From Pseudomonadales bacterium (GTDB lineage: Bacteria; Pseudomonadota; Gammaproteobacteria; Pseudomonadales; Azotimanducaceae): a stretch of DNA of 64,000 nucleotides. Below are positions 1 through 48,597 of the stretch, in pieces; position 1 is the first letter of the stretch, and each line of letters opens with the position of its first letter. The notes under the pieces are model-generated. The model was given only the letters and a program-made list of their open reading frames with translations. It searched no databases and had not been told where the DNA came from. Location: assembly GCA_965208525.1 (NCBI GenBank), contig OZ242340.1, forward strand, positions 2,711,737-2,775,736, in the 5' to 3' direction. Made by a program: the position numbers and the translations under genes.

Positions 1-239
1 GCGCGTCCGACAGCTTCGATGCTGCCTTCCCGCACCTCGGCGCGATCTGGCTGGACTTGCCCCACGCCGAGCAACAGGCAGACGGCACCTACGGCGTCTT
101 CGTCGCAAACCTCGATGACTCGCTAGGAGGCTGCGCCGTACAGTCAGTTGCAGACTCCCAGCAAGGCGTCAGGGCGATCCGCAAGGTGGCGCGCAGTAGG
201 GTTATTCCGTTGATAAACAATGCATTGAGTCCACACTGA
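1..239 (+). CDS. 3' end of an unidentified gene running in from the window edge (C-terminal fragment)
   Basis: Frame is open from position 3 to a stop at 237-239 (ORF track 57..239 is its tail). No recognisable family from the ~79 aa visible. Confidence 0.3.
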   Translation, partial: ASDSFDAAFPHLGAIWLDLPHAEQQADGTYGVFVANLDDSLGGCAVQSVADSQQGVRAIRKVARSRVIPLINNALSPH

Positions 240-363
240 GCGTGTCGCTGACGCTCCCGGCGTCTCGCCGGAATGCGGCAGGCAGCACAAGGTTTTGTGG
301 GGCATGTTGGATTCCCGTTCGACGTGGGCGTAGACTTCGGCAACCGTTCGCCGGAGTCCGACC

Positions 364-13350: not shown

Positions 13351-13661
13351 TAAACCGTCAATATGCCTCGAAGCGGAGTCAACACCAATGTGCCGGCCAA
13401 GAGGTTTGCGTCGTTCTGCGACGGAAACCTCTTGGCTAGGTGGGGGCTGGGGCCAGACCCCGAGCGCCAGCGAGGGGTTTGGCGGCGTCGATGGCGCGGT
13501 CCCACACGTCCTTCGGAGCGTGGACCCATCACGTTCCTCCCGCCGAAGGCCAAGAAACCAAGGGCCCGAAGCTGCAACCAGCCCTCCCCCCGCGAGACGG
13601 GCCCGTCGGTGGCGGGAAGGGCCCCTGTTCCCTGCCCTCTGCGGCCCGCCGCTCCCGCCGG
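13345..13661 (+). repeat. Non-coding repeat element, copy 1 (long form), starting 'cgttgataaacc'
   Basis: About 80% identical at nucleotide level to 43563-43791. The shared sequence sits in different reading frames in the two copies, so it is not protein-coding. It lies antisense between batB and batD. Confidence 0.7.
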
Positions 13662-13696
13662 AATGGAGACTTCCTCTTCCACGTAGAGCCCCGCAT

Positions 13697-27722: not shown

Positions 27723-28751
27723 TTGCGAATCGGCTTGATGGGGCTTGGACATGTGGGGCGCCAGATCTACGGCTTGGCCCTGGGCCAGCCCGACTGCGAG
27801 GTGGTGGCGGTTTCGGACATCGGCCAGCCGGGAATCCTCCACCACCTGCTGGCGAAGACGCTGCCGAAGGGCACGTCGGTACGTCTTGTCGGGAACTACC
27901 TCGAAGGCAAGGTCGATGGCAATGCGGACCCGGTTGCCCAGACCCGCCTGATGGCGGCAGAACGGCCGGAGGAGATCCCCTGGGACCTGCTTGGTGTCGA
28001 CCTCGTGATCGACGCCACGGGCCGCTTCCGCTCCGCCGAGGAACTCGCGCCCCATCTAGACAACGGCGCTCGCCGGGTTTTGGTCTCCAGCCTCCCGGAG
28101 GGCGACGTGGATCGGGTGGTGCTGAGTGGCGTGAACGATGGCGACGCGAAGAGTGCGGATCGCATCGTCTCTGCCGGCTCCGCGTCCACCACTGCGCTCG
28201 CGCTTGCTCTCAAGGTACTGGTGGACGAGCGCCCCATCGTCCATGCCACGATGACATCGGTGCATGCCTACACCGGCGACATGAGCCTGCAGGACCATGC
28301 GGCGAGCGACTACCGACGCAGTCGCTCCGGAGCGCGCAACATCATCCCCAACGACACGCTTGCCCCGGCTTGGGTGGAGCGCGCCCTACCCGCCGTGCGC
28401 GGCAGGTTAAGCGGATTCGCGCTGAACGTGCCGGTGGGCGAGGGCTCCCTGATGGATCTCACGGTGGCCTATCGGGAGCCCGCGCCGGAGCGGGATGTCG
28501 TCAACGGCCTCTTTGCCGCCGCGGCCCAGAGAGACCCGCGCCGCCTCGCCGTCACGGACGATCCCGTCGTCTCGTCGGATGTTCTCGGCAGCGCTGAGTC
28601 GATCTTGGTGGACCTGCAAGGCACGCTCCGTTCGGGCGGCCGGCTGGTGAAGGTGCTCGGCTGGCACGAGAGCCTGGGCCATGCCCGCAGCATCCTGGAC
28701 TTGGCTCGCCTTTACGCCGGGCTCGACTCGGCTGCGGCGGCTTCGGGGTAG
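27723..28751 (+). CDS. GAPDH-like paralogue lacking the catalytic cysteine (SNASCTTN is replaced by SAGSASTT)
   Basis: Rossmann motif 'MRIGLMGLGHVGRQIY' and 'TSVHAYTGDMSLQD' are conserved. The active-site segment reads 'IVSAGSASTTALAL'. TTG start. Confidence 0.75.
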   Translation: MRIGLMGLGHVGRQIYGLALGQPDCEVVAVSDIGQPGILHHLLAKTLPKGTSVRLVGNYLEGKVDGNADPVAQTRLMAAERPEEIPWDLLGVDLVIDATGRFRSAEELAPHLDNGARRVLVSSLPEGDVDRVVLSGVNDGDAKSADRIVSAGSASTTALALALKVLVDERPIVHATMTSVHAYTGDMSLQDHAASDYRRSRSGARNIIPNDTLAPAWVERALPAVRGRLSGFALNVPVGEGSLMDLTVAYREPAPERDVVNGLFAAAAQRDPRRLAVTDDPVVSSDVLGSAESILVDLQGTLRSGGRLVKVLGWHESLGHARSILDLARLYAGLDSAAAASG

Positions 28752-28763
28752 GGGAGGGCAGTC

Positions 28764-29765
28764 GTGCGAGTGGCCATCAACGGTTTTGGGCGCATCGGTC
28801 GGGCCGTGTTCCGCATCGCCGAGCGGCAAAGCGATGTCGAGGTGGTAGCGATCAACGATCTCTTCGACCACGACATGCTGGCTTACTTGCTGACCTACGA
28901 CACCGTGATGGGGCGCTTCGACGGCGGCGTGGAAATCACGGACGGCGAACTGGTGACGCCGCACGGCCGCGCCCGCATGGTGAGCGAAGCCGATCCGTTG
29001 CGCCTGCCTTGGGGCGAGTTGGAGGTGGATGCGGTGGTGGAATCCACCGGCGTCTTCCGCAAGCGCGAGCAGATCGCAAGGCATCTCGATGCGGGTGCCC
29101 GCCGCGTCCTGCTTACCGTGCCGGCAGGCGACCCCATCGACTACACGGTGGTGCTTGGCGTCAACGACGAAGGCTTGCTGCCCGAACATCGTCTGGTCTC
29201 CAACGCGAGCTGCACCACGAACTGTCTCGCCCCCGTGGCGCGGGTGCTCCACGACGCCTTCGGCATTCGCGAAGGCGTCATCAACACGGTGCACGCCTAC
29301 ACCAACGACCAGAGCCTCGCCGACGTGCCGCATTCGGACTGGCGACGCAGCCGAGCGGCGGCGGAGAACATCATCCCCACCTCCACGGGCGCGGCGCGTG
29401 CCGTGGGCGAAGTGCTGCCGGAACTCAAGGGCAAGCTCGACGGCATCGCCTCCCGCGTGCCGGTGCCGGACGGCTCGGTGGTGGACCTGTTCGCCGAACT
29501 CGAAACGGAAACCAGCATGGACGAGATCCACGACGCCGTGCGAGCCGCAGCCGATTCACCCCGAATGCAAGGCGTGCTGTCGTTCACGGACGAACCCGTG
29601 GTGTCCTCCGACGTCATCGGCAATCCCCACTCCTCCATCTACGACGCCTCCTTCACCCAGGTGAGCGAAGGCCGCTTCCTCAAGGCGCTTGCCTGGTACG
29701 ACAACGAATGGGGCTACTCCAACCGCGTCTGCGACGTGCTGCGCCTGATGGCGAATTTCGACTAA
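28764..29765 (+). CDS. gapA: Glyceraldehyde-3-phosphate dehydrogenase (type I)
   Basis: 'MRVAINGFGRIGRAVF', 'SNASCTTNCLAP', 'TVHAYTNDQ' and 'WYDNEWGYS' are all canonical. Confidence 0.93.
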   Translation: MRVAINGFGRIGRAVFRIAERQSDVEVVAINDLFDHDMLAYLLTYDTVMGRFDGGVEITDGELVTPHGRARMVSEADPLRLPWGELEVDAVVESTGVFRKREQIARHLDAGARRVLLTVPAGDPIDYTVVLGVNDEGLLPEHRLVSNASCTTNCLAPVARVLHDAFGIREGVINTVHAYTNDQSLADVPHSDWRRSRAAAENIIPTSTGAARAVGEVLPELKGKLDGIASRVPVPDGSVVDLFAELETETSMDEIHDAVRAAADSPRMQGVLSFTDEPVVSSDVIGNPHSSIYDASFTQVSEGRFLKALAWYDNEWGYSNRVCDVLRLMANFD

Positions 29766-36676: not shown

Positions 36677-36805
36677 CCCCGGCGACCATGGCTGGCGCCT
36701 AGACGCTGCCTGCCGAGGATGTTGAGGACGCCTGTTCGGTGCGGGTGATGGCGTGAAGGGCCGGCGCGCTGAAGCGGTGCGGATTGAGGGAAGGGAAGGG
36801 GCAAG

Positions 36806-38236
36806 ATGAAGCTGTTGGTTGCGAACCGTGGGGAGATAGCGATCCGCGTGATGCGTGCGGCGGCGGAGCTGGGGATTTCTACGGTTGCGATTGCGCCGAG
36901 GGACGACGCCGGGTCGCTGCACACGGGCAAGGCGGACGAGTTCGTGACGCTTGAGGGGGCGGGCGCGTCGGCCTACCTCGACATCGGGCAGGTGGTGGGG
37001 GCGGCGCGGGAGACGGGCTGCGACGCGGTGCATCCGGGCTACGGCTTCCTGTCGGAGAACGCGGAGCTGGCGCGGGCGTGCTCCGAGGCGGGGCTGACGT
37101 TCGTGGGGCCGCGGGAGGAGACGCTGCGGCTGTTCGGCGACAAGGCGCGCGCCCGGTCGGCGGCGTCGGCGGCGGGGGTGCCGGTGATCCGTGGCATCGA
37201 CCACGCGGTGTCGCTGGACGAGGCGGAGGCGTTCTTCGCGAGCCTGGGCGCTGGCAGCGCGATGATGCTGAAGGCGGTGGGCGGCGGCGGCGGTCGGGGC
37301 TCGCGCATGGTGGAGCGTGCGGAGGAGGTTGCGGAGGCGTTCGAGCGCTGCCGCGCGGAGGCGGAGGCGAGCTTCGGCAACGGCGAGCTGTACGTGGAGG
37401 AGTTCATGCGCCGGGCGCGGCACGTGGAGGTGCAGGTGCTGGGCGACGGCAGCGGCGCGGCCCAGCATCTCGGCGAGCGGGAGTGCAGCGTGCAGCGGCG
37501 TTTCCAGAAGATCGTCGAGGTGGCGCCGGCGCCGGGTCTTGCCGAGGGGGTGCGGGAGGCGGTGATCGAGGCGGCGGTTCGGTTCGCCTCGGGCGTGGAC
37601 TACCTGAGCGCCGGCACGTTCGAGTTTCTGGTGGACGTTTCGGCGGACGCCTCGGGGGGCGGGTTCGCGTTCATCGAGACGAACGCGCGGCTGCAGGTGG
37701 AGCACACGGTGACGGAGGAGGTCACCGGGGTCGACGTCGTGGCCTCGCAGCTCCGGCTGGCGCAGGGCGCGACGATTTCCGACCTGGGGCTGGACGCGCC
37801 GCCTGCCCTGCGGGGCTACGCGATCCAGTCGCGGGTGTGCATGGAGTCGGTTCGCGAAGACGGTTCCATCGTTCCGACCGGCGGGGTGCTGACGGCGTAC
37901 GAGGCGCCGAGCGGCCCGGGTGTGCGCACGGACGGCTTCGGCTACGGCGGCTACGAGACGAGCCTGAACTACGACCCGCTGCTGGCGAAGGTGATCGCGC
38001 ACTCGCCGTCGCCGGACTTCGGCGACGCCGTCGCCCGCTCGCTGCGGGCGCTGGCGGAGTTCCGGGTCGAGGGGGTGGAGACGAACATCGCCTTCCTCGA
38101 GAGCATCCTGCGCCACCCGGACTTCGCCGCCGCCGAGGTGCACACCCGCTTCGTCGACGAGAACATGGCCAGCCTCGCCGCCGCCGAGCAAGGCGCACGC
38201 TTCGTCACCCCGCCCGGATTCGAGCCGCAGGCGGCA
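36806..38236 (+). repeat. Direct repeat unit A (1.43 kb; identical bar 1 mismatch seen to 40296-41726)
   Basis: Compared by eye across the region. Overlapping spurious ORFs 37078..38340 vs 40568..41830 and 37722..38198 vs 41212..41688 are identical or differ by 1 aa. One substitution was seen (NYDP/NYDS). Confidence 0.9.
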
Positions 38237-40273
38237 GACGGATTCGCCGGTGCCAGAGTCGAGGATGCCCGCGACCCCCTTGCACTTTTCCTGCACGACA
38301 CCCGCGTCAAGTCCGAACAGGACGACGAGGACGAAGCTGAAAGCGGCCCGGTCGTCGTGCCGGCCCCGGTTCCCGGCGAGGTGCGCGCCGTGCATGTCCT
38401 CGCCGGAGACGAGGTGCTGACGGGCCAACCGCTCGCAACCATTCACTCGCTGGAGATCGACCACATCGTTCGCGCTGACGAGGGCGGTGCCGTGGAAACC
38501 GTCGCCGTGGACGCCGGCAATGTCGTCCGCGCCGGCGACTCCTTGCTGCAAATCGTCAAGTCCGACATGGCCGGCCGTTGGGCCGAACCTGCTGCGGAGG
38601 CAGACTTCGACACCCGCCGCTCCGACCTGGCCCTCGTGGACCAGCGCCGCACCTACATCGAAGACGACTTCCGCGCCGAACGCATCGGTCGACGCCACGC
38701 CAAGGAGCAGCGCAGCCCGCGCGAGAACATCGAACACCTCATGGACGGCACCTTCCGCGAGTACGGTCCCCTCGTCACCGCGGCAAGCTGGCAGAAGCAG
38801 GAATGGCTGCGGGAGACGACCCAGGCGGATGGCCTCGTCATGGGCATCGGCAGCATCAACGGCGATCTCTTCGATGCCGACGCCTCCCGCGCGGTGGTGG
38901 TTCACTACGACTACATGGTGGTGGCGGGCACCCAGGGCGGGCGCGGCCACTACAAGCAGGATCGCATCTACGAACTGGCCGGACGCTTCCGGTTGCCCCT
39001 GATCCTCTTTGCCGAGGGCGGCGGCGGTCGACCCGGCATCAGCGGCGGCGAACGGGCAGAAGCCGTGGACATCGCCATCGAGGCGGGGCTGCGCAAGCTT
39101 GGCGAGAAGGCGCCGCCCGGTTCCCGCGCCAGCGCCGTGGACGTGGCCGGTCGCGGCGGCGGGGGCGTGCCGGTGGACTCCTACACCTTCACCAAGCTCT
39201 GCGAGCTGAGCGGCCTGGTGCCCTTGGTGGGCGTCAACTCCGGGCGCTGCTTCGCCGGCAACACGGTGATGCTGGCGTCCTGCGATGTCATCATCGCGGC
39301 GGAGAACTCCACCATTGGCCTTGGTGGCCCTGCCATGATCGAAGGCGGGGGCCTCGGCATCTACACGCCGGAAGAAGTGGGTCCCATGTCCTTCCAGGTG
39401 CCAAACGGTGTCGTGGACATCCTCGTCAAGGACGACGAGGCGGCCATCGAGACGGCGAAAAAATACCTTTCCTACTTCCAGGGCGCGGTGGATAGCTGGG
39501 AGACGCCGGACCAGCGCCGCCTCCGCGCGATCATTCCGGAAGACCGCAGCGCGCTCTACGACATGCGCGAGCTCATCGCCACTTTGGCGGACGAAGACTC
39601 CATCCTCGAAATCCGCGAAGCCTTCGGCGTCGGGATCATCACCGCCTTCATCCGCATCGAAGGCGAGCCGATGGGCCTCATCGCCAATAACCCCGCGCAC
39701 CTATCTGGCGCCATCGACAGCGATGCCGCCGACAAGGCGGCGCGCTTCCTGCAACTCTGCGACACCTTCGACATCCCGGTGCTGTCGCTGATGGACTGTC
39801 CCGGCCTCATGCCGGGGCCGGAGTACGAGCAGGCAGCACTGCTTCGCCACTCAGGCCGCATGTTCGTCACCGGCGCCAACATGACCACGCCCATGTTCGG
39901 CGTCGTGGTGCGCAAGGCCTATGGAATGGGCGTGCGAGCGATGTGCGGCGGCAGCTCGCTGGAACCGTTCTTCACCGTCGCCTGGCCCACGGCAGAGTTC
40001 GCCGACATGACCATCGACGGCAGAGTCAATCTCATGTACGGCGAGGAACTGGCCGCGATTGAGGATGCAGCGGAACGAGAAGCGGTGCACCAACGCCTGA
40101 TGGATGCCCACGTCGATCGAGTGCGCGCGGTGAACGCGGGCGGCACCAACTACGGCATCGACGACGTCATCGACCCGGCCGACACCCGAGCGTGGATCGC
40201 GCAGGGGCTTAGGAGCGTGCCGAAACCCCCGCCGCGGGAGGAAAAGAAGCGACCCAATGTGGACACGTGGTAG
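36806..40273 (+). CDS. Single-chain biotin-dependent acyl-CoA carboxylase paralogue 1 (BC - degenerate BCCP - carboxyltransferase); BCCP lacks the biotin-acceptor lysine
   Basis: ATP-grasp biotin carboxylase (aa 1-450), a biotinyl-like domain with 'ATIHSLEIDHIV' instead of AMKM, and a PccB/AccD-like CT domain ('VVVHYDYMVVAGTQGG', '...RKAYGMGVRAM'). 1155 aa. Confidence 0.85.
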   Translation: MKLLVANRGEIAIRVMRAAAELGISTVAIAPRDDAGSLHTGKADEFVTLEGAGASAYLDIGQVVGAARETGCDAVHPGYGFLSENAELARACSEAGLTFVGPREETLRLFGDKARARSAASAAGVPVIRGIDHAVSLDEAEAFFASLGAGSAMMLKAVGGGGGRGSRMVERAEEVAEAFERCRAEAEASFGNGELYVEEFMRRARHVEVQVLGDGSGAAQHLGERECSVQRRFQKIVEVAPAPGLAEGVREAVIEAAVRFASGVDYLSAGTFEFLVDVSADASGGGFAFIETNARLQVEHTVTEEVTGVDVVASQLRLAQGATISDLGLDAPPALRGYAIQSRVCMESVREDGSIVPTGGVLTAYEAPSGPGVRTDGFGYGGYETSLNYDPLLAKVIAHSPSPDFGDAVARSLRALAEFRVEGVETNIAFLESILRHPDFAAAEVHTRFVDENMASLAAAEQGARFVTPPGFEPQAADGFAGARVEDARDPLALFLHDTRVKSEQDDEDEAESGPVVVPAPVPGEVRAVHVLAGDEVLTGQPLATIHSLEIDHIVRADEGGAVETVAVDAGNVVRAGDSLLQIVKSDMAGRWAEPAAEADFDTRRSDLALVDQRRTYIEDDFRAERIGRRHAKEQRSPRENIEHLMDGTFREYGPLVTAASWQKQEWLRETTQADGLVMGIGSINGDLFDADASRAVVVHYDYMVVAGTQGGRGHYKQDRIYELAGRFRLPLILFAEGGGGRPGISGGERAEAVDIAIEAGLRKLGEKAPPGSRASAVDVAGRGGGGVPVDSYTFTKLCELSGLVPLVGVNSGRCFAGNTVMLASCDVIIAAENSTIGLGGPAMIEGGGLGIYTPEEVGPMSFQVPNGVVDILVKDDEAAIETAKKYLSYFQGAVDSWETPDQRRLRAIIPEDRSALYDMRELIATLADEDSILEIREAFGVGIITAFIRIEGEPMGLIANNPAHLSGAIDSDAADKAARFLQLCDTFDIPVLSLMDCPGLMPGPEYEQAALLRHSGRMFVTGANMTTPMFGVVVRKAYGMGVRAMCGGSSLEPFFTVAWPTAEFADMTIDGRVNLMYGEELAAIEDAAEREAVHQRLMDAHVDRVRAVNAGGTNYGIDDVIDPADTRAWIAQGLRSVPKPPPREEKKRPNVDTW

Positions 40274-40295
40274 GGAAGCAGGGGGAGAGGCAAAG

Positions 40296-41726
40296 ATGAA
40301 GCTGTTGGTTGCGAACCGTGGGGAGATAGCGATCCGCGTGATGCGTGCGGCGGCGGAGCTGGGGATTTCTACGGTTGCGATTGCGCCGAGGGACGACGCC
40401 GGGTCGCTGCACACGGGCAAGGCGGACGAGTTCGTGACGCTTGAGGGGGCGGGCGCGTCGGCCTACCTCGACATCGGGCAGGTGGTGGGGGCGGCGCGGG
40501 AGACGGGCTGCGACGCGGTGCATCCGGGCTACGGCTTCCTGTCGGAGAACGCGGAGCTGGCGCGGGCGTGCTCCGAGGCGGGGCTGACGTTCGTGGGGCC
40601 GCGGGAGGAGACGCTGCGGCTGTTCGGCGACAAGGCGCGCGCCCGGTCGGCGGCGTCGGCGGCGGGGGTGCCGGTGATCCGTGGCATCGACCACGCGGTG
40701 TCGCTGGACGAGGCGGAGGCGTTCTTCGCGAGCCTGGGCGCTGGCAGCGCGATGATGCTGAAGGCGGTGGGCGGCGGCGGCGGTCGGGGCTCGCGCATGG
40801 TGGAGCGTGCGGAGGAGGTTGCGGAGGCGTTCGAGCGCTGCCGCGCGGAGGCGGAGGCGAGCTTCGGCAACGGCGAGCTGTACGTGGAGGAGTTCATGCG
40901 CCGGGCGCGGCACGTGGAGGTGCAGGTGCTGGGCGACGGCAGCGGCGCGGCCCAGCATCTCGGCGAGCGGGAGTGCAGCGTGCAGCGGCGTTTCCAGAAG
41001 ATCGTCGAGGTGGCGCCGGCGCCGGGTCTTGCCGAGGGGGTGCGGGAGGCGGTGATCGAGGCGGCGGTTCGGTTCGCCTCGGGCGTGGACTACCTGAGCG
41101 CCGGCACGTTCGAGTTTCTGGTGGACGTTTCGGCGGACGCCTCGGGGGGCGGGTTCGCGTTCATCGAGACGAACGCGCGGCTGCAGGTGGAGCACACGGT
41201 GACGGAGGAGGTCACCGGGGTCGACGTCGTGGCCTCGCAGCTCCGGCTGGCGCAGGGCGCGACGATTTCCGACCTGGGGCTGGACGCGCCGCCTGCCCTG
41301 CGGGGCTACGCGATCCAGTCGCGGGTGTGCATGGAGTCGGTTCGCGAAGACGGTTCCATCGTTCCGACCGGCGGGGTGCTGACGGCGTACGAGGCGCCGA
41401 GCGGCCCGGGTGTGCGCACGGACGGCTTCGGCTACGGCGGCTACGAGACGAGCCTGAACTACGACTCGCTGCTGGCGAAGGTGATCGCGCACTCGCCGTC
41501 GCCGGACTTCGGCGACGCCGTCGCCCGCTCGCTGCGGGCGCTGGCGGAGTTCCGGGTCGAGGGGGTGGAGACGAACATCGCCTTCCTCGAGAGCATCCTG
41601 CGCCACCCGGACTTCGCCGCCGCCGAGGTGCACACCCGCTTCGTCGACGAGAACATGGCCAGCCTCGCCGCCGCCGAGCAAGGCGCACGCTTCGTCACCC
41701 CGCCCGGATTCGAGCCGCAGGCGGCG
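40296..41726 (+). repeat. Direct repeat unit B of the 1.43-kb BC-domain repeat
   Basis: See unit A. Confidence 0.9.
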
Positions 41727-43517
41727 GCAGCGCAGCAGGCCGAGCAGGCGGTGGGGCCAGAGGGGTCCGTGGGCCTGGTTGCCCCCATGCAAGGAACCAT
41801 CGTCGAGATTGGCGTTGCCATTGGCGATGAGGTGCGCGTTGGTCAAGCCGTGGCCGTCGTTGAGGCAATGAAGCTGCAGCACGACATCCGGGCGGACCGC
41901 AACGGTGTTGTCTGCGCCGTCTCCATGGCGGAAGGCGACGTGGTGCGCGAGGGCTTTCCCATCGTCTTCCTGCACGAGTCCGATGTGGAAGGCGGCGCCC
42001 TCGAGGGCGATGCAGGAATGGACCTCGATCTCCTCCGGGGCGACATGCAGGAGGTCAACGAACTCATCGACCAAACCCTCGATGCCGCCAAGGCAGAAGC
42101 GGTGGCTGGGCTGCGCGAGAGCAACCGGCGCACTCCTAGGGAGAATCTCGACGATTTCCTGGACGAAGGCTCCTTCCGCGAGTTCGGTCCCCCAGCGGCC
42201 GGCTCCGCCGCCGGCGGCACCATCATGGGCTTCGGCAGCGTCAATGCCGACCTCGTCGGAGACGAGCGCAGCCGCGTGGCGGTGGTACACAGCAACTACC
42301 CAACCGCCGCCTACACCCACGGTCACTATCGTCAGGAGCAGATTCACGAGATGGCCAGGGACTGGCGCGTCCCTGTGGTGCTCTTCTCCGAAGGGGAGGG
42401 TGGCCCGCACGGCAACGTCGGCGGCGTCGGCATGGACGCCAGCGTCTTCACCGATTTCGCGAGGCTGTCGGGGCTGGTGCCGCTCATCGGCGTCAACACC
42501 GGCGACTGCTTCGCCGGCAATGCCGCCCTCCTCGCCTGCTGCGACGTCATCATCGCCACGGAGGACTCCACCATCGGCATGAACGGCCCGGCCGTCGTCG
42601 AGTCGAGCGGATTGGGCACGCACAGTGCCGCGGAACTCGGCGGCATGTCGTTCCAGGCAGCCAACGGCAGCGTCGACATCGTGGTTGAGGACGACGCGGC
42701 CGCGGTGGCCACCGCCAAGCAATATCTCTCTTACTTTCAGGGGCCTGTGTCGGACTGGGAAGCGCCAGACCAGCGCCGGATGCGGCATGTCATCCCGGAA
42801 GACCGCGTGCGCGCCTACGACATGCGCGAAATCATCGAGACCTTGGCCGACGAGGGCTCGGTGCTGGAGATCCGCAAAGACTTCGGCATCGGCGTCATCA
42901 CCTCCTTCATCCGCGTGGAAGGTCAGCCGATGGGCGTCGTGGCCAACAACCCGGCGCACCTCGCCGGCGCCGTGGACAGCCCAGGGGCAGACAACGGCGC
43001 CCGCTTCTTCCAGCTCTGCGACGCCTTCGACATCCCGGTGGTGGTGTTCATGGACTGTCCGGGGATCATGGTGGGCCCAGACCACGAGCGCACGGCCCTG
43101 GTCCGCCACGCCGTGCGCCTGTTCAACATTGGCGCCAACTGCACGGCGCCCATGTTCGGCATCATGGTGCGCAAGGCATACGGGCTCGGCGTGCAAGCCA
43201 TGATCGGCGGCGCCTCCTCGGTACCGTTCCTGACGGTGGCATGGCCCACGGCAGAATTCGCTGGCATGAACATCGACGGTGCCGTCAAGCTCTCCGCCCG
43301 CCGCGAACTGGCCGCCATCGAAGATGCCGAAGAGCGCAAGGACGCCTACGAACGACGCGTCGCCCAAGGCTATGAGTCGGCAAGAGCCGTCAACTCCGGC
43401 GCAAGATACGTGATCGACCCAGCCGACACCCGCGCCTTCATCGCTCGAGGCATGAAGAGCCTCCCACCAACCCCACCCCGCACGAAGAAGAAGCGCCCCT
43501 ATGTTGACACGTGGTAA
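40296..43517 (+). CDS. Single-chain biotin-dependent acyl-CoA carboxylase paralogue 2 (BC-BCCP-CT) with intact biotinylation motif
   Basis: Same BC domain as paralogue 1. BCCP has 'VVEAMKLQHDI'. The CT domain is ~55-60% identical to paralogue 1 and lacks its ~40-aa insertion. Start taken at the MKLLVAN ATG with a purine-rich RBS, not the upstream 40257 ATG that overlaps paralogue 1. Confidence 0.85.
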   Translation: MKLLVANRGEIAIRVMRAAAELGISTVAIAPRDDAGSLHTGKADEFVTLEGAGASAYLDIGQVVGAARETGCDAVHPGYGFLSENAELARACSEAGLTFVGPREETLRLFGDKARARSAASAAGVPVIRGIDHAVSLDEAEAFFASLGAGSAMMLKAVGGGGGRGSRMVERAEEVAEAFERCRAEAEASFGNGELYVEEFMRRARHVEVQVLGDGSGAAQHLGERECSVQRRFQKIVEVAPAPGLAEGVREAVIEAAVRFASGVDYLSAGTFEFLVDVSADASGGGFAFIETNARLQVEHTVTEEVTGVDVVASQLRLAQGATISDLGLDAPPALRGYAIQSRVCMESVREDGSIVPTGGVLTAYEAPSGPGVRTDGFGYGGYETSLNYDSLLAKVIAHSPSPDFGDAVARSLRALAEFRVEGVETNIAFLESILRHPDFAAAEVHTRFVDENMASLAAAEQGARFVTPPGFEPQAAAAQQAEQAVGPEGSVGLVAPMQGTIVEIGVAIGDEVRVGQAVAVVEAMKLQHDIRADRNGVVCAVSMAEGDVVREGFPIVFLHESDVEGGALEGDAGMDLDLLRGDMQEVNELIDQTLDAAKAEAVAGLRESNRRTPRENLDDFLDEGSFREFGPPAAGSAAGGTIMGFGSVNADLVGDERSRVAVVHSNYPTAAYTHGHYRQEQIHEMARDWRVPVVLFSEGEGGPHGNVGGVGMDASVFTDFARLSGLVPLIGVNTGDCFAGNAALLACCDVIIATEDSTIGMNGPAVVESSGLGTHSAAELGGMSFQAANGSVDIVVEDDAAAVATAKQYLSYFQGPVSDWEAPDQRRMRHVIPEDRVRAYDMREIIETLADEGSVLEIRKDFGIGVITSFIRVEGQPMGVVANNPAHLAGAVDSPGADNGARFFQLCDAFDIPVVVFMDCPGIMVGPDHERTALVRHAVRLFNIGANCTAPMFGIMVRKAYGLGVQAMIGGASSVPFLTVAWPTAEFAGMNIDGAVKLSARRELAAIEDAEERKDAYERRVAQGYESARAVNSGARYVIDPADTRAFIARGMKSLPPTPPRTKKKRPYVDTW

Positions 43518-43856: not shown

Positions 43857-44996
43857 ATGAGTGAGGAAGCCGCGCTGGCGGGCATTCGGGTGGTGGATGC
43901 CGCCGGGAGCATCGCCACGGCCTATTGCGGCAAGCTGTTTGCGGATCATGGCGCGGCTGTGGTCAATGCCGAGCCCCCCGAAGGCTTCGCCACGCGGCGG
44001 GAAGAACCGTTTCTGCCCGGCGCCCTGGCTCCGGAAAACAGCGCCCTCCACGCTTGGCTCTCCACCAACAAGGCGAGCGCAGTGGTCGAGTCGGTCGGCG
44101 ACATCCGCGACTTGGCGCGGGGGGCGCAGGTGGTGCTTGACGACGGGCGTTTCGATTGCGAGCACTTCTCGGCGCTCGCGCCCAACGTCGTGGTTTCTAC
44201 GGTGACCTGGTTCGGACGCACCGGGCCATATGCGGATTATCAAGGCACGGATGGCGTGGTGCAGTCGCTCATCGGCATGGTGCGCGGCATCGGTCTCGAG
44301 GAGGGCCCGCCCATTCTTCCCGCTGGCTGTCAGGCGCAGATCGTCGGCGGTCTCGCCGCCTACATCGGCACCCTCGGCCAGGTGATCGCCCGCGAGATCG
44401 GCAATGCCCGAGGCCCAGTCCGGCTCGACACGAGCATCTTCGAGGCCAATCTCTGCTTCACGGAGGTCGGTGGCGTGGGCGGCCACCGCAGCGGTCGCCG
44501 CGTCCGACGCATGGGCGTGAACCGCTACCCGCCCACCTATCCGCTCGGCATCTATCCCTGCCGTGATGGCTGGCTCGGCGTCACCGCGCTGACGCCATCG
44601 CAGTGGAAGAGCTTCTGTGCCTTGCTCGACATGCAGGAGTTTGCCGACGTGCCGCAATACCAGAGCGCGATCGGCCGCTTGCAGGATGCGGAGATGCTCG
44701 ACCCGCTCATCCACGAGCGGGTGCGGGAGCAGAGCGCGACGGAGCTCTTCAACCGCGGGCAGGGCGCGCGCATCCCGCTGGCGTTGGTGCCGACGATGGA
44801 GCAACTGTTCACGGTGGACCAGTATGTCGCCCGACGGGCGTTCGATGAGGTGCGGCCGCCGGGGCAGGAGGGCTTCGTGGCTCCGGTAACGCCGTTCCGC
44901 CTGTTCCGTACCCCTGCCACTCGCGGCGGCGACGTGGCCCCCCTCGGGTCGATGCCTCCGACGCCTGTCGAACCACCTCGGAGCGTGCGCGCATGA
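43857..44996 (+). CDS. Family III CoA-transferase (CaiB/BaiF family)
   Basis: 'GIRVVDAAGSIATAYCGKLFADHGAAVV' is a family-III N-terminus, at ~380 aa. Confidence 0.8.
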   Translation: MSEEAALAGIRVVDAAGSIATAYCGKLFADHGAAVVNAEPPEGFATRREEPFLPGALAPENSALHAWLSTNKASAVVESVGDIRDLARGAQVVLDDGRFDCEHFSALAPNVVVSTVTWFGRTGPYADYQGTDGVVQSLIGMVRGIGLEEGPPILPAGCQAQIVGGLAAYIGTLGQVIAREIGNARGPVRLDTSIFEANLCFTEVGGVGGHRSGRRVRRMGVNRYPPTYPLGIYPCRDGWLGVTALTPSQWKSFCALLDMQEFADVPQYQSAIGRLQDAEMLDPLIHERVREQSATELFNRGQGARIPLALVPTMEQLFTVDQYVARRAFDEVRPPGQEGFVAPVTPFRLFRTPATRGGDVAPLGSMPPTPVEPPRSVRA

Positions 44997-46216
44997 GCCG
45001 CCCCGGCCTGCTCGAAGGCGTGCGCGTCGTGGATCTCTCGATGGGCTGGGCCGGCCCCTTGGCGGCGCGGCATCTCGCCGACATGGGCGCTGATGTCATC
45101 AAGGTGGAAGGTTGCGTCCGCTTCGACTGGTGGCGTGGCTGGGAGGCCACCCAGGAGTGGATCGATGAGGGTGGCGCCGAGATGTCGCCGGCGTTCAACA
45201 TGGTGAACCGCAACAAGCGCGACCTGACGCTGGACCTCTCAACTTCGGAAGGGGCGGACCTGCTGTTGCGCTTGGTGGCCATCTCCGACGTCGTGGTGGA
45301 GAACTACTCCGCCGGCGTGCTGCCGAAGCTTGGCCTCGACTACCCCGTGCTGGCGAAGGCCAACCCCGAAGTCGTGATGATCTCGATGCCCGCTTTCGGC
45401 AGCAACGGCCCATGGCAAGGCTATCGAGCCTACGGTTCAACGGTCGAGCAGGCATCCGGCTTGCCGCATCAGTCCGGCGAGGAGTCCATGCCGCCCACCA
45501 TGACTCACGTCGCGCTTGGCGATTCGGTGGGTGGCCTCAACGGCGCGGCGGCGCTGCTCACGGCACTCCGGGCCCGGCGCAGAACCGGCAAGGGCCAGCA
45601 CCTCGACCTGTCGCAGTCGGAATGCCTGTTTCCGCTCGGCATCAAAGGCATCCTGACGCAGTCTGTCACCGGCTCGCCGCCGCAGCGACTCGGAAATCGC
45701 TCCCTCGAACACGCGCCGCACGGGGTCTATCCCTGCGCCGGCGACGACGAGTGGATCGTCATCCAGGTTCGCTCGGAAGCGGAGTGGAAGGCGTTCGAGG
45801 CGGCGAGTGGCATTGGCGGATTTGGCGATGCTGCGGATCGGCTGGCACGGCGGGAGGAACTCGACGACGCCGTGCGAGCTTTCACCTCGACGCAGGTTGT
45901 CGAGCTCTTGATGCCAGAGTTGCAGGAAGCGGGCGTCCCGGCGGCACGCTTGGCCGGGGGGCTGGAACTCACCACGGACCCGCACCTGGCGGCGCGGGGC
46001 TTTTGGAAGATGATGCAGCGCGACTATGTCGGCGAGCTGCCGCACCCGGCGCCGCCCTATCGCGTTGGCGAAGCGCCGTTCGACATCGACCGTCCGGCGC
46101 CGACCCTCGGCCAACACAACGTTGAGGTGCTGTCGGAAGTGCTGGGCCTCGCGCCCGACGAGATCGCGGCGTTGGCGGAGAAGGGCGTCATCGGCACCAA
46201 GCCGCGACTGCCATGA
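44993..46216 (+). CDS. Family III CoA-transferase (CaiB/BaiF family)
   Basis: 'GVRVVDLSMGWAGPLAARHLADMGADVIKVE'. 4-bp overlap with the upstream gene (translational coupling). Confidence 0.85.
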   Translation: MSRPGLLEGVRVVDLSMGWAGPLAARHLADMGADVIKVEGCVRFDWWRGWEATQEWIDEGGAEMSPAFNMVNRNKRDLTLDLSTSEGADLLLRLVAISDVVVENYSAGVLPKLGLDYPVLAKANPEVVMISMPAFGSNGPWQGYRAYGSTVEQASGLPHQSGEESMPPTMTHVALGDSVGGLNGAAALLTALRARRRTGKGQHLDLSQSECLFPLGIKGILTQSVTGSPPQRLGNRSLEHAPHGVYPCAGDDEWIVIQVRSEAEWKAFEAASGIGGFGDAADRLARREELDDAVRAFTSTQVVELLMPELQEAGVPAARLAGGLELTTDPHLAARGFWKMMQRDYVGELPHPAPPYRVGEAPFDIDRPAPTLGQHNVEVLSEVLGLAPDEIAALAEKGVIGTKPRLP

Positions 46217-48597
46217 CGGCGCCGCCGCTCACCGGCACACGCGTCGTCGATGCCACCACACGCTGGGGCGAAATGGCGGGACGCATCCTCGCGGAGCTTG
46301 GTGCCGACGTCATCAAGATCGAGCCGGCCGCTGGGTGTGATTCCCGCCGCGTGGGGCCATTCCACGAGGGAGAGTCGCTGTACTGGGCGGCGATGGGCGC
46401 CGGCAAGCACAGCGTGGTTGCGGACGACCCGGAGCCGTATCTCTCGGACGCGGATGTATTCATCGAGTCGGGCTTCCGCGGGGCGCTGAATGAGCGCTTT
46501 CCGCGCTTGATCCATGCCTGCGTGACGCCGTTTGGCCTCGGTGGCCCGTTGGCGGATGCGCCAGCCGCCGAGGTCACCGTCGAAGCCGCGGGGGGCCTCG
46601 TCAACCTGCAAGGCAACGGCGACCGACCGCCGCTGCCCATGGGCGCAATGCCGCAGGCTGCGTTCCATGCCGGCGCGCAGGCGGCGGCGGACATCGTGGT
46701 GGCGCTCAACGCGCGGGAAGGCTCGGGGCTGGGGCAACGGCTGGATGTTTCCGCGCAGGCATGCATCGTCTGGACTCTGATGAATGCCACCGGCTTTCCG
46801 CCGAACACCGGGCGCAACCCACCGGGCACCAGCGAGTTTCGTGGCCAGTTGCCGCCCTTGGTCGCACCGGGTCTCAAGCTGCCGAACATCGTGCGCTGCC
46901 GCGACGGCCATGCCCAGCTTCGCTTGCAGATGCCGGTGATCGGCGAGCGCACCTTCCATGCGCTACTGCGTTGGGCGGAGGAAAGCGGGCTCGACGTGCC
47001 CGACGCGTTGCGCGGACGAGACATGACCGGCTGGCTGGCGGCGCTGGCAGCCGGCGAGGTGAAAGCGGAAGACGTGGGCATCGCGGCGGAACGTGTCGTG
47101 GATGTCTTGGCGCTGCACACGAAGCGCGAGATCCAGTCGTTCTCGGCGAAGCACGGTCTCACCCTTGCCGCCATCTACACGGTCGCCGATCTCGCCACCG
47201 ATCCGCAGCTCGAAGACCGTGACTACTGGGTGCATTGTGACGGGCGGCGCTACGCAGGTCCGTTCGCCCGGCTGTCCCGAACGCCGCTGTCGCGTGCCCG
47301 CCACGCCCCGGCGATCGGCGAGTCCATGGCGAGCACGCGAACTGCGACCGATGTGCAGGACAAGACGCCCGCCGATCAGGCCAACCTGGACGCGCGCCGG
47401 CAGGCACCTTCTTCGTCGCGGCGTGTTTCGTCGGCTTTCGAGGGGCTGCGCGTGGCCGACTTCAGTTGGGTGGGTGTCGGTCCCATGATCGGCAAGGCGC
47501 TGGCGGATCATGGCGCGACGGTGGTGCGCATCGAGTCCTCGAGCCGGCTCGACCTCCTGCGCACGTCGGCACCCTTCAAGGACGGCAAGCGCCACCCCGA
47601 CCGGGCGCAGTTCATGGCCAACTTCAACACCTCCAAGCGCGGCATCACGCTGGACCTCAAGAATCCGGAGGGCCAACGGGTCGCCCGGCGCATGGCGGAT
47701 TGGGCAGACGTGGTGCTCGAGAGCTTCTCGCCGGGCACGATGGCTCGCTTTGGCCTCGACTGGGACGCGCTCTCGAGCGAGCGCGACGACCTCATCATGC
47801 TGTCCACCTGCATGCGAGGCCAGACGGGGAGGGAGCGAACCTACTCCGGTTTCGGCGGCCAGGGCGCAGCCATTGCGGGGCTCTTTGGGCTGGTCGGCTG
47901 GCAAGACCGTCCGCCTTCCGGGCCGTGGGGCGCCTACACGGACTTCATCACCCCTCGCTTCGCCACCGCTACCCTCGGCGCCGCGCTCCTGCACAGGCAG
48001 CGCACGGGCAAGGGGCAGTACATCGATGTCTCGCAGATCGAGTGCGGCATTCGCTTCCTCGAACCGTTGGTGCTCGAACACGCGGCCAACGGCAACGTCG
48101 CCACCCGATTGGGACAGGGCTCGCCACAGCTCGATCCACACGGCGTCTTCGCCTGTCGTGGCACCCATCGCTATGTCGCCGTGGGCGTGGAGACAGACGC
48201 CGAGCGCGAGGCGCTGGCGAGTGCCATCGGGCATGCTTGCGCAGATGCCAGCGCCGGTCTCGATGGGGCGTTAACGTCGTGGTGCGCGTCGCGCGATGCC
48301 TTCGCCGCCGCAGCCTGCTTGCGCGATCACGGCGTGCCGGCGCATGTCGTCGCTCGCCCTGCGGACCTCTACCACGACGAGCAGCTGGCGCACCGTCACT
48401 TCTTCGTGACGCTGAACCATCCTGTCATGGGTCCCACGCCCTACGACGGCCCGGCCACCATCTACTCCCGTACGCCGCCGCGCCTGCGGACGCCAGCGCC
48501 ATGTCTCGGCCAGCACAATCGCGAGGTGATGGGTGGGATGCTGGGCATCGACGGCGCCGAATACGAACGCCTGCGCGCGGCCGGCGCCTTCGGCTAG
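46213..48597 (+). CDS. Double-domain family III CoA-transferase (two CaiB-like modules fused)
   Basis: First module 'GTRVVDATTRWGEMAGRILAELGADVIKIE'. Second module begins 'FEGLRVADFSWVGVGPMIGKALADHGATVVRIE'. 794 aa. 4-bp overlap with the upstream gene. Confidence 0.8.
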   Translation: MTAPPLTGTRVVDATTRWGEMAGRILAELGADVIKIEPAAGCDSRRVGPFHEGESLYWAAMGAGKHSVVADDPEPYLSDADVFIESGFRGALNERFPRLIHACVTPFGLGGPLADAPAAEVTVEAAGGLVNLQGNGDRPPLPMGAMPQAAFHAGAQAAADIVVALNAREGSGLGQRLDVSAQACIVWTLMNATGFPPNTGRNPPGTSEFRGQLPPLVAPGLKLPNIVRCRDGHAQLRLQMPVIGERTFHALLRWAEESGLDVPDALRGRDMTGWLAALAAGEVKAEDVGIAAERVVDVLALHTKREIQSFSAKHGLTLAAIYTVADLATDPQLEDRDYWVHCDGRRYAGPFARLSRTPLSRARHAPAIGESMASTRTATDVQDKTPADQANLDARRQAPSSSRRVSSAFEGLRVADFSWVGVGPMIGKALADHGATVVRIESSSRLDLLRTSAPFKDGKRHPDRAQFMANFNTSKRGITLDLKNPEGQRVARRMADWADVVLESFSPGTMARFGLDWDALSSERDDLIMLSTCMRGQTGRERTYSGFGGQGAAIAGLFGLVGWQDRPPSGPWGAYTDFITPRFATATLGAALLHRQRTGKGQYIDVSQIECGIRFLEPLVLEHAANGNVATRLGQGSPQLDPHGVFACRGTHRYVAVGVETDAEREALASAIGHACADASAGLDGALTSWCASRDAFAAAACLRDHGVPAHVVARPADLYHDEQLAHRHFFVTLNHPVMGPTPYDGPATIYSRTPPRLRTPAPCLGQHNREVMGGMLGIDGAEYERLRAAGAFG

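What the first reader, a model, noticed from the sequence alone, without database searches (positions are those of the whole stretch)
36806..41726. 1.43-kb near-perfect direct repeat homogenises the BC domains of two otherwise diverged paralogues
Nucleotides ~36806-38236 and ~40296-41726 (offset ~3490 bp) are identical except for one substitution I could find (aac tac gac CCG vs TCG). The shared overlapping spurious ORFs are 420/420 and 157/158 aa identical. Downstream of the repeat the two genes drop to roughly 45-70% aa identity. Paralogue 1 also has a ~40-aa insertion in its CT domain. The ~20 bp upstream including the purine-rich RBS is also similar. Such a sharp identity boundary inside a gene pair indicates recent gene conversion, or replacement of both 5' modules by one acquired cassette, rather than a recent whole-gene duplication.
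Basis: seen in the sequence. Interest (0 to 1): 0.75.

Follow-up and report, generated by a model that had tools for sequence, protein, structure and literature searches.

The report
Gene conversion homogenises two carboxylase genes
Two neighbouring, anciently duplicated carboxylase genes keep the first 1.43 kb (their biotin carboxylase, BC, module) almost identical by repeatedly copying it between each other, while the rest of each gene has lost complementary parts, so the two proteins probably work only together.

Summary
Window 36803-38235 and 40293-41725 are identical at 1432 of 1433 positions, and this is the only long repeat in the 64-kb window.

The same pair occurs in more than 16 other genomes, mostly sponge-associated Pseudomonadales MAGs and some Dehalococcoidia.
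- The CT halves form two deep orthologous clades (about 50% aa identity in every genome).
- The BC halves cluster by genome, at 78-100% nt identity, with the same sharp boundary everywhere.
- This is recurrent BC-limited gene conversion, not a recent duplication or a foreign cassette.
- Chromosome-level MAGs show both BC copies at 79-98.7% identity, so the second copy is real. Every case at or above 99.7% is a SPAdes contig, so the exact identity here may be slightly inflated.

New here:
- g1 lacks the biotinyl-lysine (K to E) and has a relaxed CT C-subdomain.
- g2 keeps the lysine but has a degenerate CT N-subdomain.
- This predicts an obligate g1:g2 hetero-oligomer.
- In the one lineage where conversion lapsed, g2's BC has lost catalytic residues.

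The parts
36803..38235 (+). Repeat copy 1. It covers the BC module of gene 1 (aa 1-477) plus 3 nt upstream of the ATG.
   Evidence: 1432/1433 identical to copy 2 at offset 3490. It is the only long repeat in the window. Pfam Biotin_carb_N, CPSase_L_D2 and Biotin_carb_C cover aa 2-451.
40293..41725 (+). Repeat copy 2. It covers the BC module of gene 2 (aa 1-477).
37976..37976 (+). The only difference between the copies: C here versus T at 41466 (Pro391 in g1, Ser391 in g2). Pro is the derived state.
   Evidence: Ser occurs in 29 of 31 relatives.
36806..40273 (+). Gene 1 (g1), 1155 aa. It is an LCC-like single-chain BC-BCCP-CT protein with no biotin attachment lysine.
   Evidence: Pfam domains. 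PDB 4rcn_A matches at E=3e-266. More than 100 database clusters of this type were found.
38348..38575 (+). g1 degenerate BCCP domain. Codon 550 (38453-38455, GAG = Glu) replaces the biotinyl-lysine of the EAMKM motif, giving 'HSLEIDH'.
   Evidence: K is replaced by E in 16 of 16 g1 orthologues, and by E, G or D across the wider g1 family. g1 lost 8 of 13 family-invariant BCCP columns. Omega is 0.30 versus 0.095 in g2.
39044..39157 (+). g1-specific ~38-aa insertion directly after the conserved 'AEGGGGRPG' motif of the CT N-subdomain.
   Evidence: It is absent from 4rcn and from g2. An insertion of variable sequence occupies this position in the 20 g1-type relatives aligned; the canonical-type P0238 lacks it.
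39695..40114 (+). g1 CT C-subdomain stretch where g1 has lost family-invariant residues.
   Evidence: 13 of 109 invariant columns are lost in g1 versus 4 in g2. Omega is 0.125 versus 0.053.
40274..40295 (+). 22-nt spacer between g1 and g2, carrying a purine-rich RBS similar to the one upstream of g1. The genes are probably co-transcribed.
   Evidence: Sequence shown. The promoter and terminator scan found nothing between the genes.
40296..43517 (+). Gene 2 (g2), 1073 aa. It is an LCC-like single-chain BC-BCCP-CT protein with an intact biotinylation motif.
   Evidence: Pfam domains. PDB 4rcn_A matches at E=1e-253 over the full length.
41766..41993 (+). g2 BCCP domain with the intact 'EAMKL' motif. 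The biotinyl-lysine is codon 526 (41871-41873, AAG).
   Evidence: Conserved in 15 of 15 g2 orthologues. Coordinates.
42063..42671 (+). g2 degenerate CT N-subdomain. 'GGGGRPG' has become 'GEGGPHG' (42393-42413), the 'AGTQG' segment is deleted, and many invariant Arg/Lys residues are lost.
   Evidence: 39 of 103 invariant columns are lost in g2 versus 10 in g1 (Fisher P=6e-5). Omega is 0.156 versus 0.06.
43857..48597 (+). Three family III CoA-transferase genes downstream (43857-44996, 44993-46216, and 46213-48597 with two domains). This is a possible functional context, not part of the repeat.
   Evidence: Pfam CoA_transf_3. They are conserved only in the closest relatives L001 and L003. A two-domain CoA-transferase also flanks the pair in the distant L028, but at only 27% identity.

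Best explanation
The 1.43-kb repeat is the product of recent intrachromosomal gene conversion. This is non-reciprocal homologous recombination between direct repeats 3.49 kb apart, and it overwrote the BC module of one tandem paralogue with that of the other.

The two genes are an ancient duplicate pair of LCC-type single-chain carboxylases. Throughout the family's history the BC module, and only that module, has been re-homogenised again and again (concerted evolution). Conversion tracts are confined to the BC module. Upstream of the start codon, and downstream of codon ~477, the sequences are unalignable: the linker contains a 24-aa indel and the BCCP regions are 40-60% nt identical. Heteroduplex therefore cannot extend there (inferred).

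Conversion is tolerated in BC because BC does the same substrate-independent job in both chains. The rest of each gene has specialised by complementary degeneration.
- g1 keeps an intact CT N-subdomain but has a dead BCCP (Lys to Glu) and a relaxed CT C-subdomain.
- g2 keeps BCCP-biotin and the CT C-subdomain but has a degenerate CT N-subdomain.

Carboxyltransferase active sites are built from the N-subdomain of one chain and the C-subdomain of its partner. The pair is therefore predicted to form an obligate g1:g2 hetero-oligomer, with active sites N(g1)+C(g2) served by g2's biotin (inferred).

Shown here: the repeat, the phylogenetic discordance, dS near 0, the shared boundary, the motif losses and the omega asymmetries. 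Inferred: the RecA-type mechanism, the heteromer, and which BC is used.
For: Repeat: 1432/1433 identical, and the only long repeat in the window.

Domains and family.

The pair is conserved in tandem in 16 further loci.

NJ trees: the CT halves split into g1 and g2 clades with congruent species order. The BC halves cluster by genome, except L014/L020, whose copies cluster by position.

Within-genome BC nt identity ranges from 78% to 100%, while CT stays at 60-71%.

An identity profile in 25-codon bins shows the drop at the same columns in every genome.

Within genomes, BC dS is 0-0.67 against CT dS of 0.58-3.9. Between genomes BC dS is about equal to CT dS, so BC is co-inherited and not foreign.

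Intermediate pairs have longer identical runs than permutations give, which indicates partial tracts: L013 P<0.0005, L016 0.0025, L010 0.005, L002 0.006.

Chromosome-level MAGs carry both copies at 98.7% (L011), 95.9% (L003), 95.0% (L016), 89% (L002), 81% (L014) and 79% (L005).

Seven further short-read contigs begin or end 54-177 nt inside the BC repeat edges. This is the signature of assembly breaks at a near-identical repeat.

A distant free-living lineage (L028-L030) has the same pair in reversed order. Its two BCs are 80% aa identical to each other, against 66-75% to any other BC.

Complementary degeneration: K to E in 16 of 16 g1 orthologues. Invariant-column losses are BCCP 8 versus 3, CT-N 10 versus 39, CT-C 13 versus 4, with Fisher P=6e-5. 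The omega asymmetry is reciprocal in 13 of 13 genome pairs.

BC catalytic motifs are intact in both copies here.
Against: All pairs at or above 99.7% identity (the window-like L012, L001, L007, L008 and L017) are SPAdes NODE contigs. The chromosome-level assemblies reach at most 98.7%. Consensus collapse of a near-identical repeat could therefore inflate the identity seen in the window, and reads are not available.

The heteromer is inferred from sequence only. Both CT subdomains keep their putative oxyanion-hole glycines ('FAGN', 'AYG[LM]G'), so the 'degenerate' half-sites may not be fully dead.

The BC module in this clade has an odd synonymous composition: GC3 0.93 versus 0.85, and G3-C3 skew +0.18 versus -0.3. 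Plain conversion does not explain this.

The BC omega of about 0.23 is higher than for the CT halves. That is unexpected for a normally very conserved domain.
Confidence: 0.8

Rival explanations
1. Assembly artefact. Either the second BC copy is an assembly duplication, or two moderately diverged copies were collapsed to one consensus that the assembler wrote twice.
For: Every pair at or above 99.7% identical comes from SPAdes NODE contigs. No short-read assembly shows 92-99.6%, whereas chromosome-level MAGs show 95.0, 95.9, 96.5 and 98.7%. Many short-read contigs break exactly at the repeat edges. The window's exact proteins are not in the public collection, so its source and read type are unknown.
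Against: Both genes need their own BC to be complete ORFs, and both BCs exist in every chromosome-level MAG. Duplication as an artefact is therefore excluded. Real identity of up to 98.7% is seen in a chromosome-level assembly (L011). The window does keep one difference between the copies. Even if the identity is inflated, the true value would still be far above the 70% of the CT halves.
Confidence: 0.12
2. Cassette replacement. A foreign BC module was acquired by horizontal transfer and now sits in both genes.
For: The BC module has a composition distinct from the rest of both genes. Here GC3 is 0.93 versus 0.85 and the G3 skew is reversed. In L008 the two BC modules are 66% GC islands (GC3 0.84) in a 51% GC genome (GC3 0.50).
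Against: Between-genome BC dS is similar to CT dS. BC protein identities follow the same clade structure as CT, and L008's BC is equidistant from all clades with no close donor. Transfer into one copy would still need conversion to reach the other.
Confidence: 0.06
3. Recent whole-gene duplication, followed by very fast divergence of the 3' two-thirds.
For: The genes are in tandem, in the same orientation and with the same domain order.
Against: The CT halves of g1 and g2 form two deep clades, each containing all genomes. CT dS is saturated. The g1-specific and g2-specific lesions are shared by lineages as distant as L028.
Confidence: 0.01
4. Identity is maintained by extreme purifying selection on the BC sequence, with no recombination.
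For: BC is normally the most conserved domain of biotin carboxylases (established knowledge).
Against: Synonymous sites are identical within genomes (dS 0-0.005) but diverged between close genomes (dS 0.23-0.29). BC has the highest omega of the catalytic modules.
Confidence: 0.01

Closest known systems
[quoted passage not shown]
   Same: Same BC-BCCP-CT order on one ~1100-aa chain. Both genes show full-length sequence homology to it (E=1e-253 for g2, 3e-266 for g1).
   Different: LCC is described as a homo-hexamer of one gene product (PMC6491548; the Tran 2015 abstract from my own knowledge). Here there are two co-linear paralogues. One lacks the biotinyl-lysine and carries a ~38-aa CT insertion, and the other has a degenerate CT N-subdomain. 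This implies a heteromer.
mtrA-1/mtrA-2 of methanogens: domain-limited, long-lasting gene conversion between operon paralogues (PMC4632066)
   Same: An ancient duplication within an operon. One shared domain is homogenised by recurrent gene conversion, while the remainder of the genes stays different.
   Different: A different protein family and a different domain of life. Here the unconverted parts show complementary loss of catalytic elements. One lineage shows decay of one copy where conversion lapsed.
[quoted passage not shown]
   Same: An intragenic repeat longer than 500 bp and more than 80% identical, undergoing gene conversion inside multidomain enzyme genes. GC skew is intense (mean |GC skew| 0.21).
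   Different: Mean |TA skew| is 0.115, below the 0.15 threshold, and the GC/TA skew correlation is weak (r=0.2). The GC skew also extends upstream of the repeat and fades in its last 400 nt. Other lineages with equally homogenised BC modules have no skew.
Mycobacterial LCC complex AccA3(8)AccD4(2)AccD5(4)AccE(2) (PMC13012033)
   Same: Two CT paralogues of about 49% identity form one hetero-hexameric CT core served by a single kind of BC-BCCP.
   Different: There the BC-BCCP is a separate shared polypeptide. Here each CT paralogue carries its own fused BC copy, and the two copies are kept alike by gene conversion. Both mycobacterial CTs are active, whereas here each chain seems to contribute half of a site.
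Plant BADC proteins, BCCP paralogues lacking the biotinyl-lysine (my own knowledge; Salie et al. 2016)
   Same: A biotin-carrier fold is retained but the biotinylation lysine is lost.
   Different: BADCs are free-standing negative regulators of heteromeric ACCase. Here the dead BCCP is one domain of a full-length carboxylase chain.

Membership tests
LCC-type single-chain acyl-CoA carboxylase | BC, BCCP and CT domains in that order on one ~1100-aa chain | tested here: met
   The Pfam domain order is met in both genes.
LCC-type single-chain acyl-CoA carboxylase | Full-length sequence homology to the solved LCC (4rcn) | tested here: met
   g2 matches at E=1e-253 over residues 2-1051. g1 matches at E=3e-266 in three stretches interrupted by its insertion.
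LCC-type single-chain acyl-CoA carboxylase | Biotinyl-lysine in the (E)AMK(M/L) motif of BCCP | tested here: not met
   g2 meets this feature (EAMKL, K526). g1 does not (HSLEIDH, E550), and the lysine is absent in 16 of 16 g1 orthologues. g1 is therefore a biotin-less paralogue, not a canonical member.
LCC-type single-chain acyl-CoA carboxylase | Homo-hexameric holoenzyme with a preference for long-chain acyl-CoA | not testable with these tools
   This needs biochemistry. The sequence evidence argues against a homo-oligomer.
Concerted evolution by gene conversion | Paralogues within a genome are more alike than orthologues between genomes, for the converted segment only | tested here: met
   BC clusters by genome and CT clusters by orthology.
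Concerted evolution by gene conversion | Synonymous divergence is near zero in the converted segment and saturated in the flank | tested here: met
   In the window, BC dS is 0.000 and CT dS is 0.92. The same pattern holds in 15 other genomes.
Concerted evolution by gene conversion | Independent events in several lineages, with a patchy tract structure | tested here: met
   Identities range from 78% to 100% across lineages. The run-length permutation test is significant in 5 of 6 intermediate pairs.
GRINS (PMC8256042) | Duplicated region longer than 500 bp with more than 80% identity within the locus | tested here: met
   1433 bp at 99.9% identity.
GRINS (PMC8256042) | Mean absolute GC skew above 0.15 (150-nt windows, 30-nt step) | tested here: met
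   0.21 in both copies, against 0.07 in the rest of the genes.
GRINS (PMC8256042) | Mean absolute TA skew above 0.15, correlated with the GC skew | tested here: not met
   0.115 with r=0.17-0.20, no higher than the window background of 0.13. None of the 16 loci meets this criterion.
GC-biased gene conversion | GC3 is raised in the converted segment relative to the rest of the same genes | tested here: inconclusive
   It is raised in the window clade (0.93 versus 0.85), in L007/L016 (0.97 versus 0.87), in L013 and in L008 (0.84 versus 0.50). It is not raised in L011 or L017, although those pairs are 98.7-100% homogenised.

The most novel reading that the evidence does not exclude
Gene conversion here may not be a neutral by-product. 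It may act as the maintenance mechanism of a two-gene enzyme. On this reading it keeps one BC 'allele' on both chains of an obligate g1:g2 hetero-oligomer, the genetic equivalent of a shared BC subunit, and it rescues a copy that would otherwise decay. The supporting hint is that in the only lineage where the copies have escaped conversion since before a speciation (L014/L020), g2's BC has lost the catalytic Q-V-E triad and carries three times more changes at near-invariant sites. In L002, an 89% pair, g2's BC carries R292W. The raised GC3 of the converted module, extreme in L008, would then be a visible footprint of GC-biased conversion in bacteria.
Probability: 0.3. Interest if true: 0.75.

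Novelty: new variant of a known kind. Interest (0 to 1): 0.6.

Why it matters
The locus is a clean, replicated natural experiment. More than 16 genomes show every stage from 78% to 100% identity, which shows how gene conversion and subfunctionalisation interact inside a multidomain enzyme.

One module stays interchangeable and is homogenised. The others degenerate in complementary ways, which locks the two paralogues into mutual dependence.

It also defines a large, unrecognised family of biotin-less LCC paralogues. More than 100 sequence clusters were found. Those that carry a source name are called 'carbamoyl-phosphate synthase large subunit', 'acetyl/propionyl-CoA carboxylase alpha subunit', 'carboxyl transferase domain-containing protein' or similar, and most carry no name at all. 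The family predicts a heteromeric version of the single-chain LCC architecture.

On the practical side, the repeat breaks or may collapse short-read assemblies of these symbiont genomes. Annotation and copy-level variation at this locus should therefore be treated with care.

Tried and rejected
1. GRINS membership. The formal definition fails on TA skew and on skew correlation.

2. 'Two-allele sorting' as the cause of the excess BC divergence between close genomes. Mismatch maps show blocks where three genomes all differ from each other. The excess lies in dN, not dS. The idea is not supported as the main cause.

3. Foreign BC cassette. BC distances parallel CT distances and no donor was found.

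4. Identifying the window's source. The exact-protein look-ups found nothing. A 30-mer scan of metagenome contigs across the variant site also found nothing. Read type and read-level checks were therefore impossible.

5. Functional inference from neighbours. The flanking genes are conserved only in the closest relatives. The recurring two-domain family III CoA-transferase is only 27% identical between the window and L028.

6. The promoter and terminator scan was uninformative.

7. The LCC structure paper (Tran 2015) is not held. Statements on its quaternary structure rest on PMC6491548 and on my own knowledge.

8. The tandem GAPDH paralogues in the same window (27723-29765) were checked as a control. 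They show no homogenisation.
Full report
**1. The observation**

At an offset of 3490 nt, window 36803-38235 and 40293-41725 match at 1432 of 1433 positions. The one difference is C at 37976 versus T at 41466. Ungapped identity drops to background immediately outside both ends. A megablast of the window against itself finds no other repeat of 60 nt or more, so this is not one of many repeats. Its '420/420' figure for an overlapping spurious ORF is wrong: the value is 388/420, because that ORF runs 105 nt beyond the repeat.

**2. What the repeat encodes**

Two co-oriented genes are separated by 22 nt. They are g1 (36806-40273, 1155 aa) and g2 (40296-43517, 1073 aa). Both have the domain order biotin carboxylase (BC), biotin carboxyl carrier (BCCP), carboxyltransferase (CT). 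Both are full-length homologues of the solved single-chain long-chain acyl-CoA carboxylase 4rcn, at E=1e-253 and 3e-266.

The repeat is exactly the BC module (aa 1-477) plus the last bases of the ribosome-binding region. Beyond residue 477 the proteins are about 50% identical. g1 has a ~38-aa insertion after the 'AEGGGGRPG' motif. The surrounding genes are ordinary chromosomal genes, including uvrC, aminopeptidase N, chorismate synthase and bipA.

**3. Related loci**

A scan of one genome per species returned 27 loci. Most are sponge-associated Gammaproteobacteria/Pseudomonadales MAGs, and a few are Dehalococcoidia/Chloroflexota MAGs. Sixteen of them carry the complete tandem pair.

In every one, the CT half of g1 is 75-98% identical to the window's g1 and about 50% identical to g2, and the reverse holds for g2. 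The duplication therefore predates all these lineages.
- NJ trees of the CT half give two deep clades, g1 and g2, with matching species order.
- The tree of the BC module groups the two copies of each genome together. The sole exception is L014/L020, where the copies group by position.
- Within-genome BC nucleotide identity takes every value from 78% to 100%, while the CT halves stay at 60-71%.
- The identity profile in 25-codon bins drops at the same alignment columns (aa ~470-477) in all genomes.
- Within-genome synonymous divergence of BC is 0-0.67, and 0.000 in the window. CT dS is 0.58 to more than 1.
- Between genomes BC dS is about the same as CT dS, so the BC module has been inherited together with the rest of the genes. 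BC protein distances follow the same clade structure.
- Pairs of intermediate identity have longer identical runs than permutations allow, which indicates partial tracts.
- A distant free-living lineage (L028-L030) has the pair in the reverse order, g2-like then g1-like. Its two BCs are 80% identical to each other but 66-75% identical to all other BCs, while its CT halves group by orthology.

Together this is the classical signature of concerted evolution by recurrent gene conversion, confined to one module.

**4. Artefact?**

The second BC copy is real. Chromosome-level MAGs are single 4-6 Mb records, so they are almost certainly long-read assemblies (inference). They carry both copies at 98.7% (L011), 95.9% (L003), 95.0% (L016), 89% (L002), 81% (L014) and 79% (L005).

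All pairs at or above 99.7% are SPAdes contigs. Seven further short-read contigs start or stop 54-177 nt inside the repeat edges, as expected when an assembly graph breaks at a near-identical repeat.

The window's source could not be found. I therefore cannot exclude that its 99.93% is somewhat inflated by consensus collapse. I put about 25% on the true value being noticeably lower, in the range 95-99%. That would not change the interpretation.

**5. What the two proteins are to each other**

In g1 the biotinyl-lysine of the EAMKM motif is replaced by Glu ('HSLEIDH'). This holds in all 16 orthologues, whereas g2 keeps 'EAMKL' in all 15.

I compared both clades with 77 canonical relatives, which give 227 columns that are at least 95% invariant.

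| Region | Invariant columns | Lost in g1 | Lost in g2 |
|---|---|---|---|
| BCCP | 13 | 8 | 3 |
| CT N-subdomain | 103 | 10 | 39 |
| CT C-subdomain | 109 | 13 | 4 |

- The N-versus-C asymmetry between g1 and g2 gives Fisher P=6e-5.
- The g2 losses include the 'GGGGRPG' motif, a deleted 'AGTQG' segment and many Arg/Lys residues.

Selective constraint mirrors this pattern in 13 of 13 genome pairs.

| Region | omega in g1 | omega in g2 |
|---|---|---|
| BCCP | 0.30 | 0.095 |
| CT N-subdomain | 0.06 | 0.156 |
| CT C-subdomain | 0.125 | 0.053 |

It is established for acyl-CoA carboxyltransferases that each active site is formed by the N-subdomain of one chain and the C-subdomain of its partner. 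On that basis the simplest reading is an obligate g1:g2 hetero-oligomer. Its productive sites would be N(g1)+C(g2), served by g2's biotin. This is inference. Both subdomains still keep the putative oxyanion-hole glycines, so the other half-site may be weakened rather than dead.

The g1 type is a large family. More than 100 clusters at 90% identity were found, including Tara Oceans sequences. In the 20 g1-type members aligned there is an insertion after GGGGRPG, and the lysine is replaced by E, G or D in nearly all members examined; P0222 keeps K.

A known parallel for a heteromeric CT core served by one kind of BC is the mycobacterial AccD4(2)AccD5(4)-AccA3 complex (PMC13012033).

**6. Why only BC is homogenised**

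Mechanistically, conversion needs homology. Upstream of the ATG the sequences are unalignable. Downstream of codon ~477 there is a 24-aa indel, and the linker/BCCP region is 40-60% nt identical. Tracts must therefore start and end inside BC (inference). Mismatches in intermediate pairs are enriched at the module's edges, which is consistent with this.

Functionally, BC does the same substrate-independent reaction in both chains, so overwriting one copy with the other is harmless. Conversion of the specialised BCCP/CT parts would destroy the complementarity.

BC catalytic motifs are intact in both copies in the window and in nearly all genomes. The exception is informative.
- In L014 and L020 the copies have not been homogenised since before those species split. 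There, g2's BC reads 'NARLDDSH' instead of 'NARLQVEH', which is loss of E. coli Q294/V295/E296.
- g2's BC in those genomes also carries 18 changes at 281 near-invariant columns, against 6 in g1's BC.
- In L002, an 89% pair, g2's BC has R292W.
- In L005, an 80% pair, both BCs remain intact.

So one BC may be dispensable, and conversion may delay its decay. This is suggestive, not shown. The BC module as a whole evolves with omega of about 0.23, against 0.05-0.06 for the constrained CT halves. That fits partial redundancy.

**7. Composition**

In the window's clade the BC module has GC3 of 0.93 against 0.85 in the rest of the genes. Its third-position G-C skew is +0.18 against about -0.3. Codon positions 1 and 2 do not differ. 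L008 is extreme: its two BC modules are 66% GC islands (GC3 0.84) in a 51% GC genome (GC3 0.50). L007/L016 and L013 also show raised GC3, but L011 and L017 do not. This is compatible with GC-biased gene conversion but inconclusive.

The locus fails the formal GRINS definition. Mean |GC skew| is 0.21, but mean |TA skew| is 0.115 and the correlation is r=0.2. The GC skew also does not coincide with the repeat limits.

**8. Comparison with what is known, and verdict**

Gene conversion between bacterial or archaeal paralogues, including domain-limited and long-lasting cases such as mtrA-1/mtrA-2 (PMC4632066) and PKS modules (PMC8256042), is a known kind of process. LCC is a known enzyme. Literature searches found no report of BC homogenisation, or of a biotin-less partner, in LCC-type carboxylases.

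I rate this a new variant of a known kind.
- The more interesting content is the conserved, complementarily degenerate gene pair whose single shared module is kept uniform by recurrent conversion.

Interest is 0.6.

Noticed in passing
L008:9801-11200 and 13301-14700: The two BC modules are ~66% GC islands (GC3 0.84) in a ~51% GC genome. The rest of the same genes has GC3 of 0.50. This could be GC-biased conversion or an old foreign module; it is unresolved.
   Followed up: partly
window:36400-37800 and 40200-41400: Strong positive GC skew (+0.25 to +0.32 in 200-nt windows), caused by third-codon-position G excess. It starts upstream of the repeat and fades in its last ~400 nt. These are the two most skewed 1.4-kb segments of the window.
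   Followed up: partly
L014:13505-16720 and L020:13530-16742: g2's BC has lost the catalytic Q-V-E triad ('NARLDDSHAVTE') in both genomes. One is a chromosome-level MAG and the other a SPAdes MAG from another study, so the change is inherited and not a sequencing error.
   Followed up: yes
L028:2647-9504 (also L029, L030): In a widespread free-living marine lineage the pair is in reversed order, with the g2-like gene first. The dead BCCP there has Gly ('EAMGLRH') instead of Glu at the lysine position. A two-domain family III CoA-transferase lies directly upstream.
   Followed up: partly
L010, L017, L025 (Dehalococcoidia/Chloroflexota MAGs): The same gene pair occurs in Chloroflexota bins, and in both the BC and CT trees it groups with some Pseudomonadales (L009, L011). 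This suggests cross-phylum transfer of the two-gene unit among sponge symbionts.
   Followed up: no
L015:10001-14931: Both BC modules of this long contig are interrupted by frameshifts, although the copies are 96.5% identical. They are either pseudogenes or uncorrected long-read indel errors.
   Followed up: no
window:43857-49735: Three consecutive family III CoA-transferase genes, the last a two-domain fusion of 794 aa, followed by a WYL/WCX regulator. The arrangement is conserved only in the closest relatives (L001, L003).
   Followed up: partly
window:364-1515: A phage-type tyrosine integrase (Arm-DNA-bind_3, Phage_int_M, Phage_integrase) lies in a 72-73% GC stretch at the left edge of the window (1-4000), against ~66% elsewhere. 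This may be the edge of an integrated element. A 1180-aa ORF (273-3815) overlapping it has no Pfam hit and may be spurious.
   Followed up: no
window:27723-29765: Two tandem GAPDH paralogues sit next to each other. Unlike the carboxylase pair they share only a 102-nt stretch at 71% identity, so there is no homogenisation.
   Followed up: yes
database proteins P0001-P0012, P0141, P0149, P0211: The g2-type relatives listed are nearly all N-terminally truncated. Those flagged 'partial' in NCBI begin ~100-165 nt before the BC/linker boundary. Several g1-type and g2-type proteins are named 'carbamoyl-phosphate synthase large subunit', which is a misannotation.
   Followed up: partly
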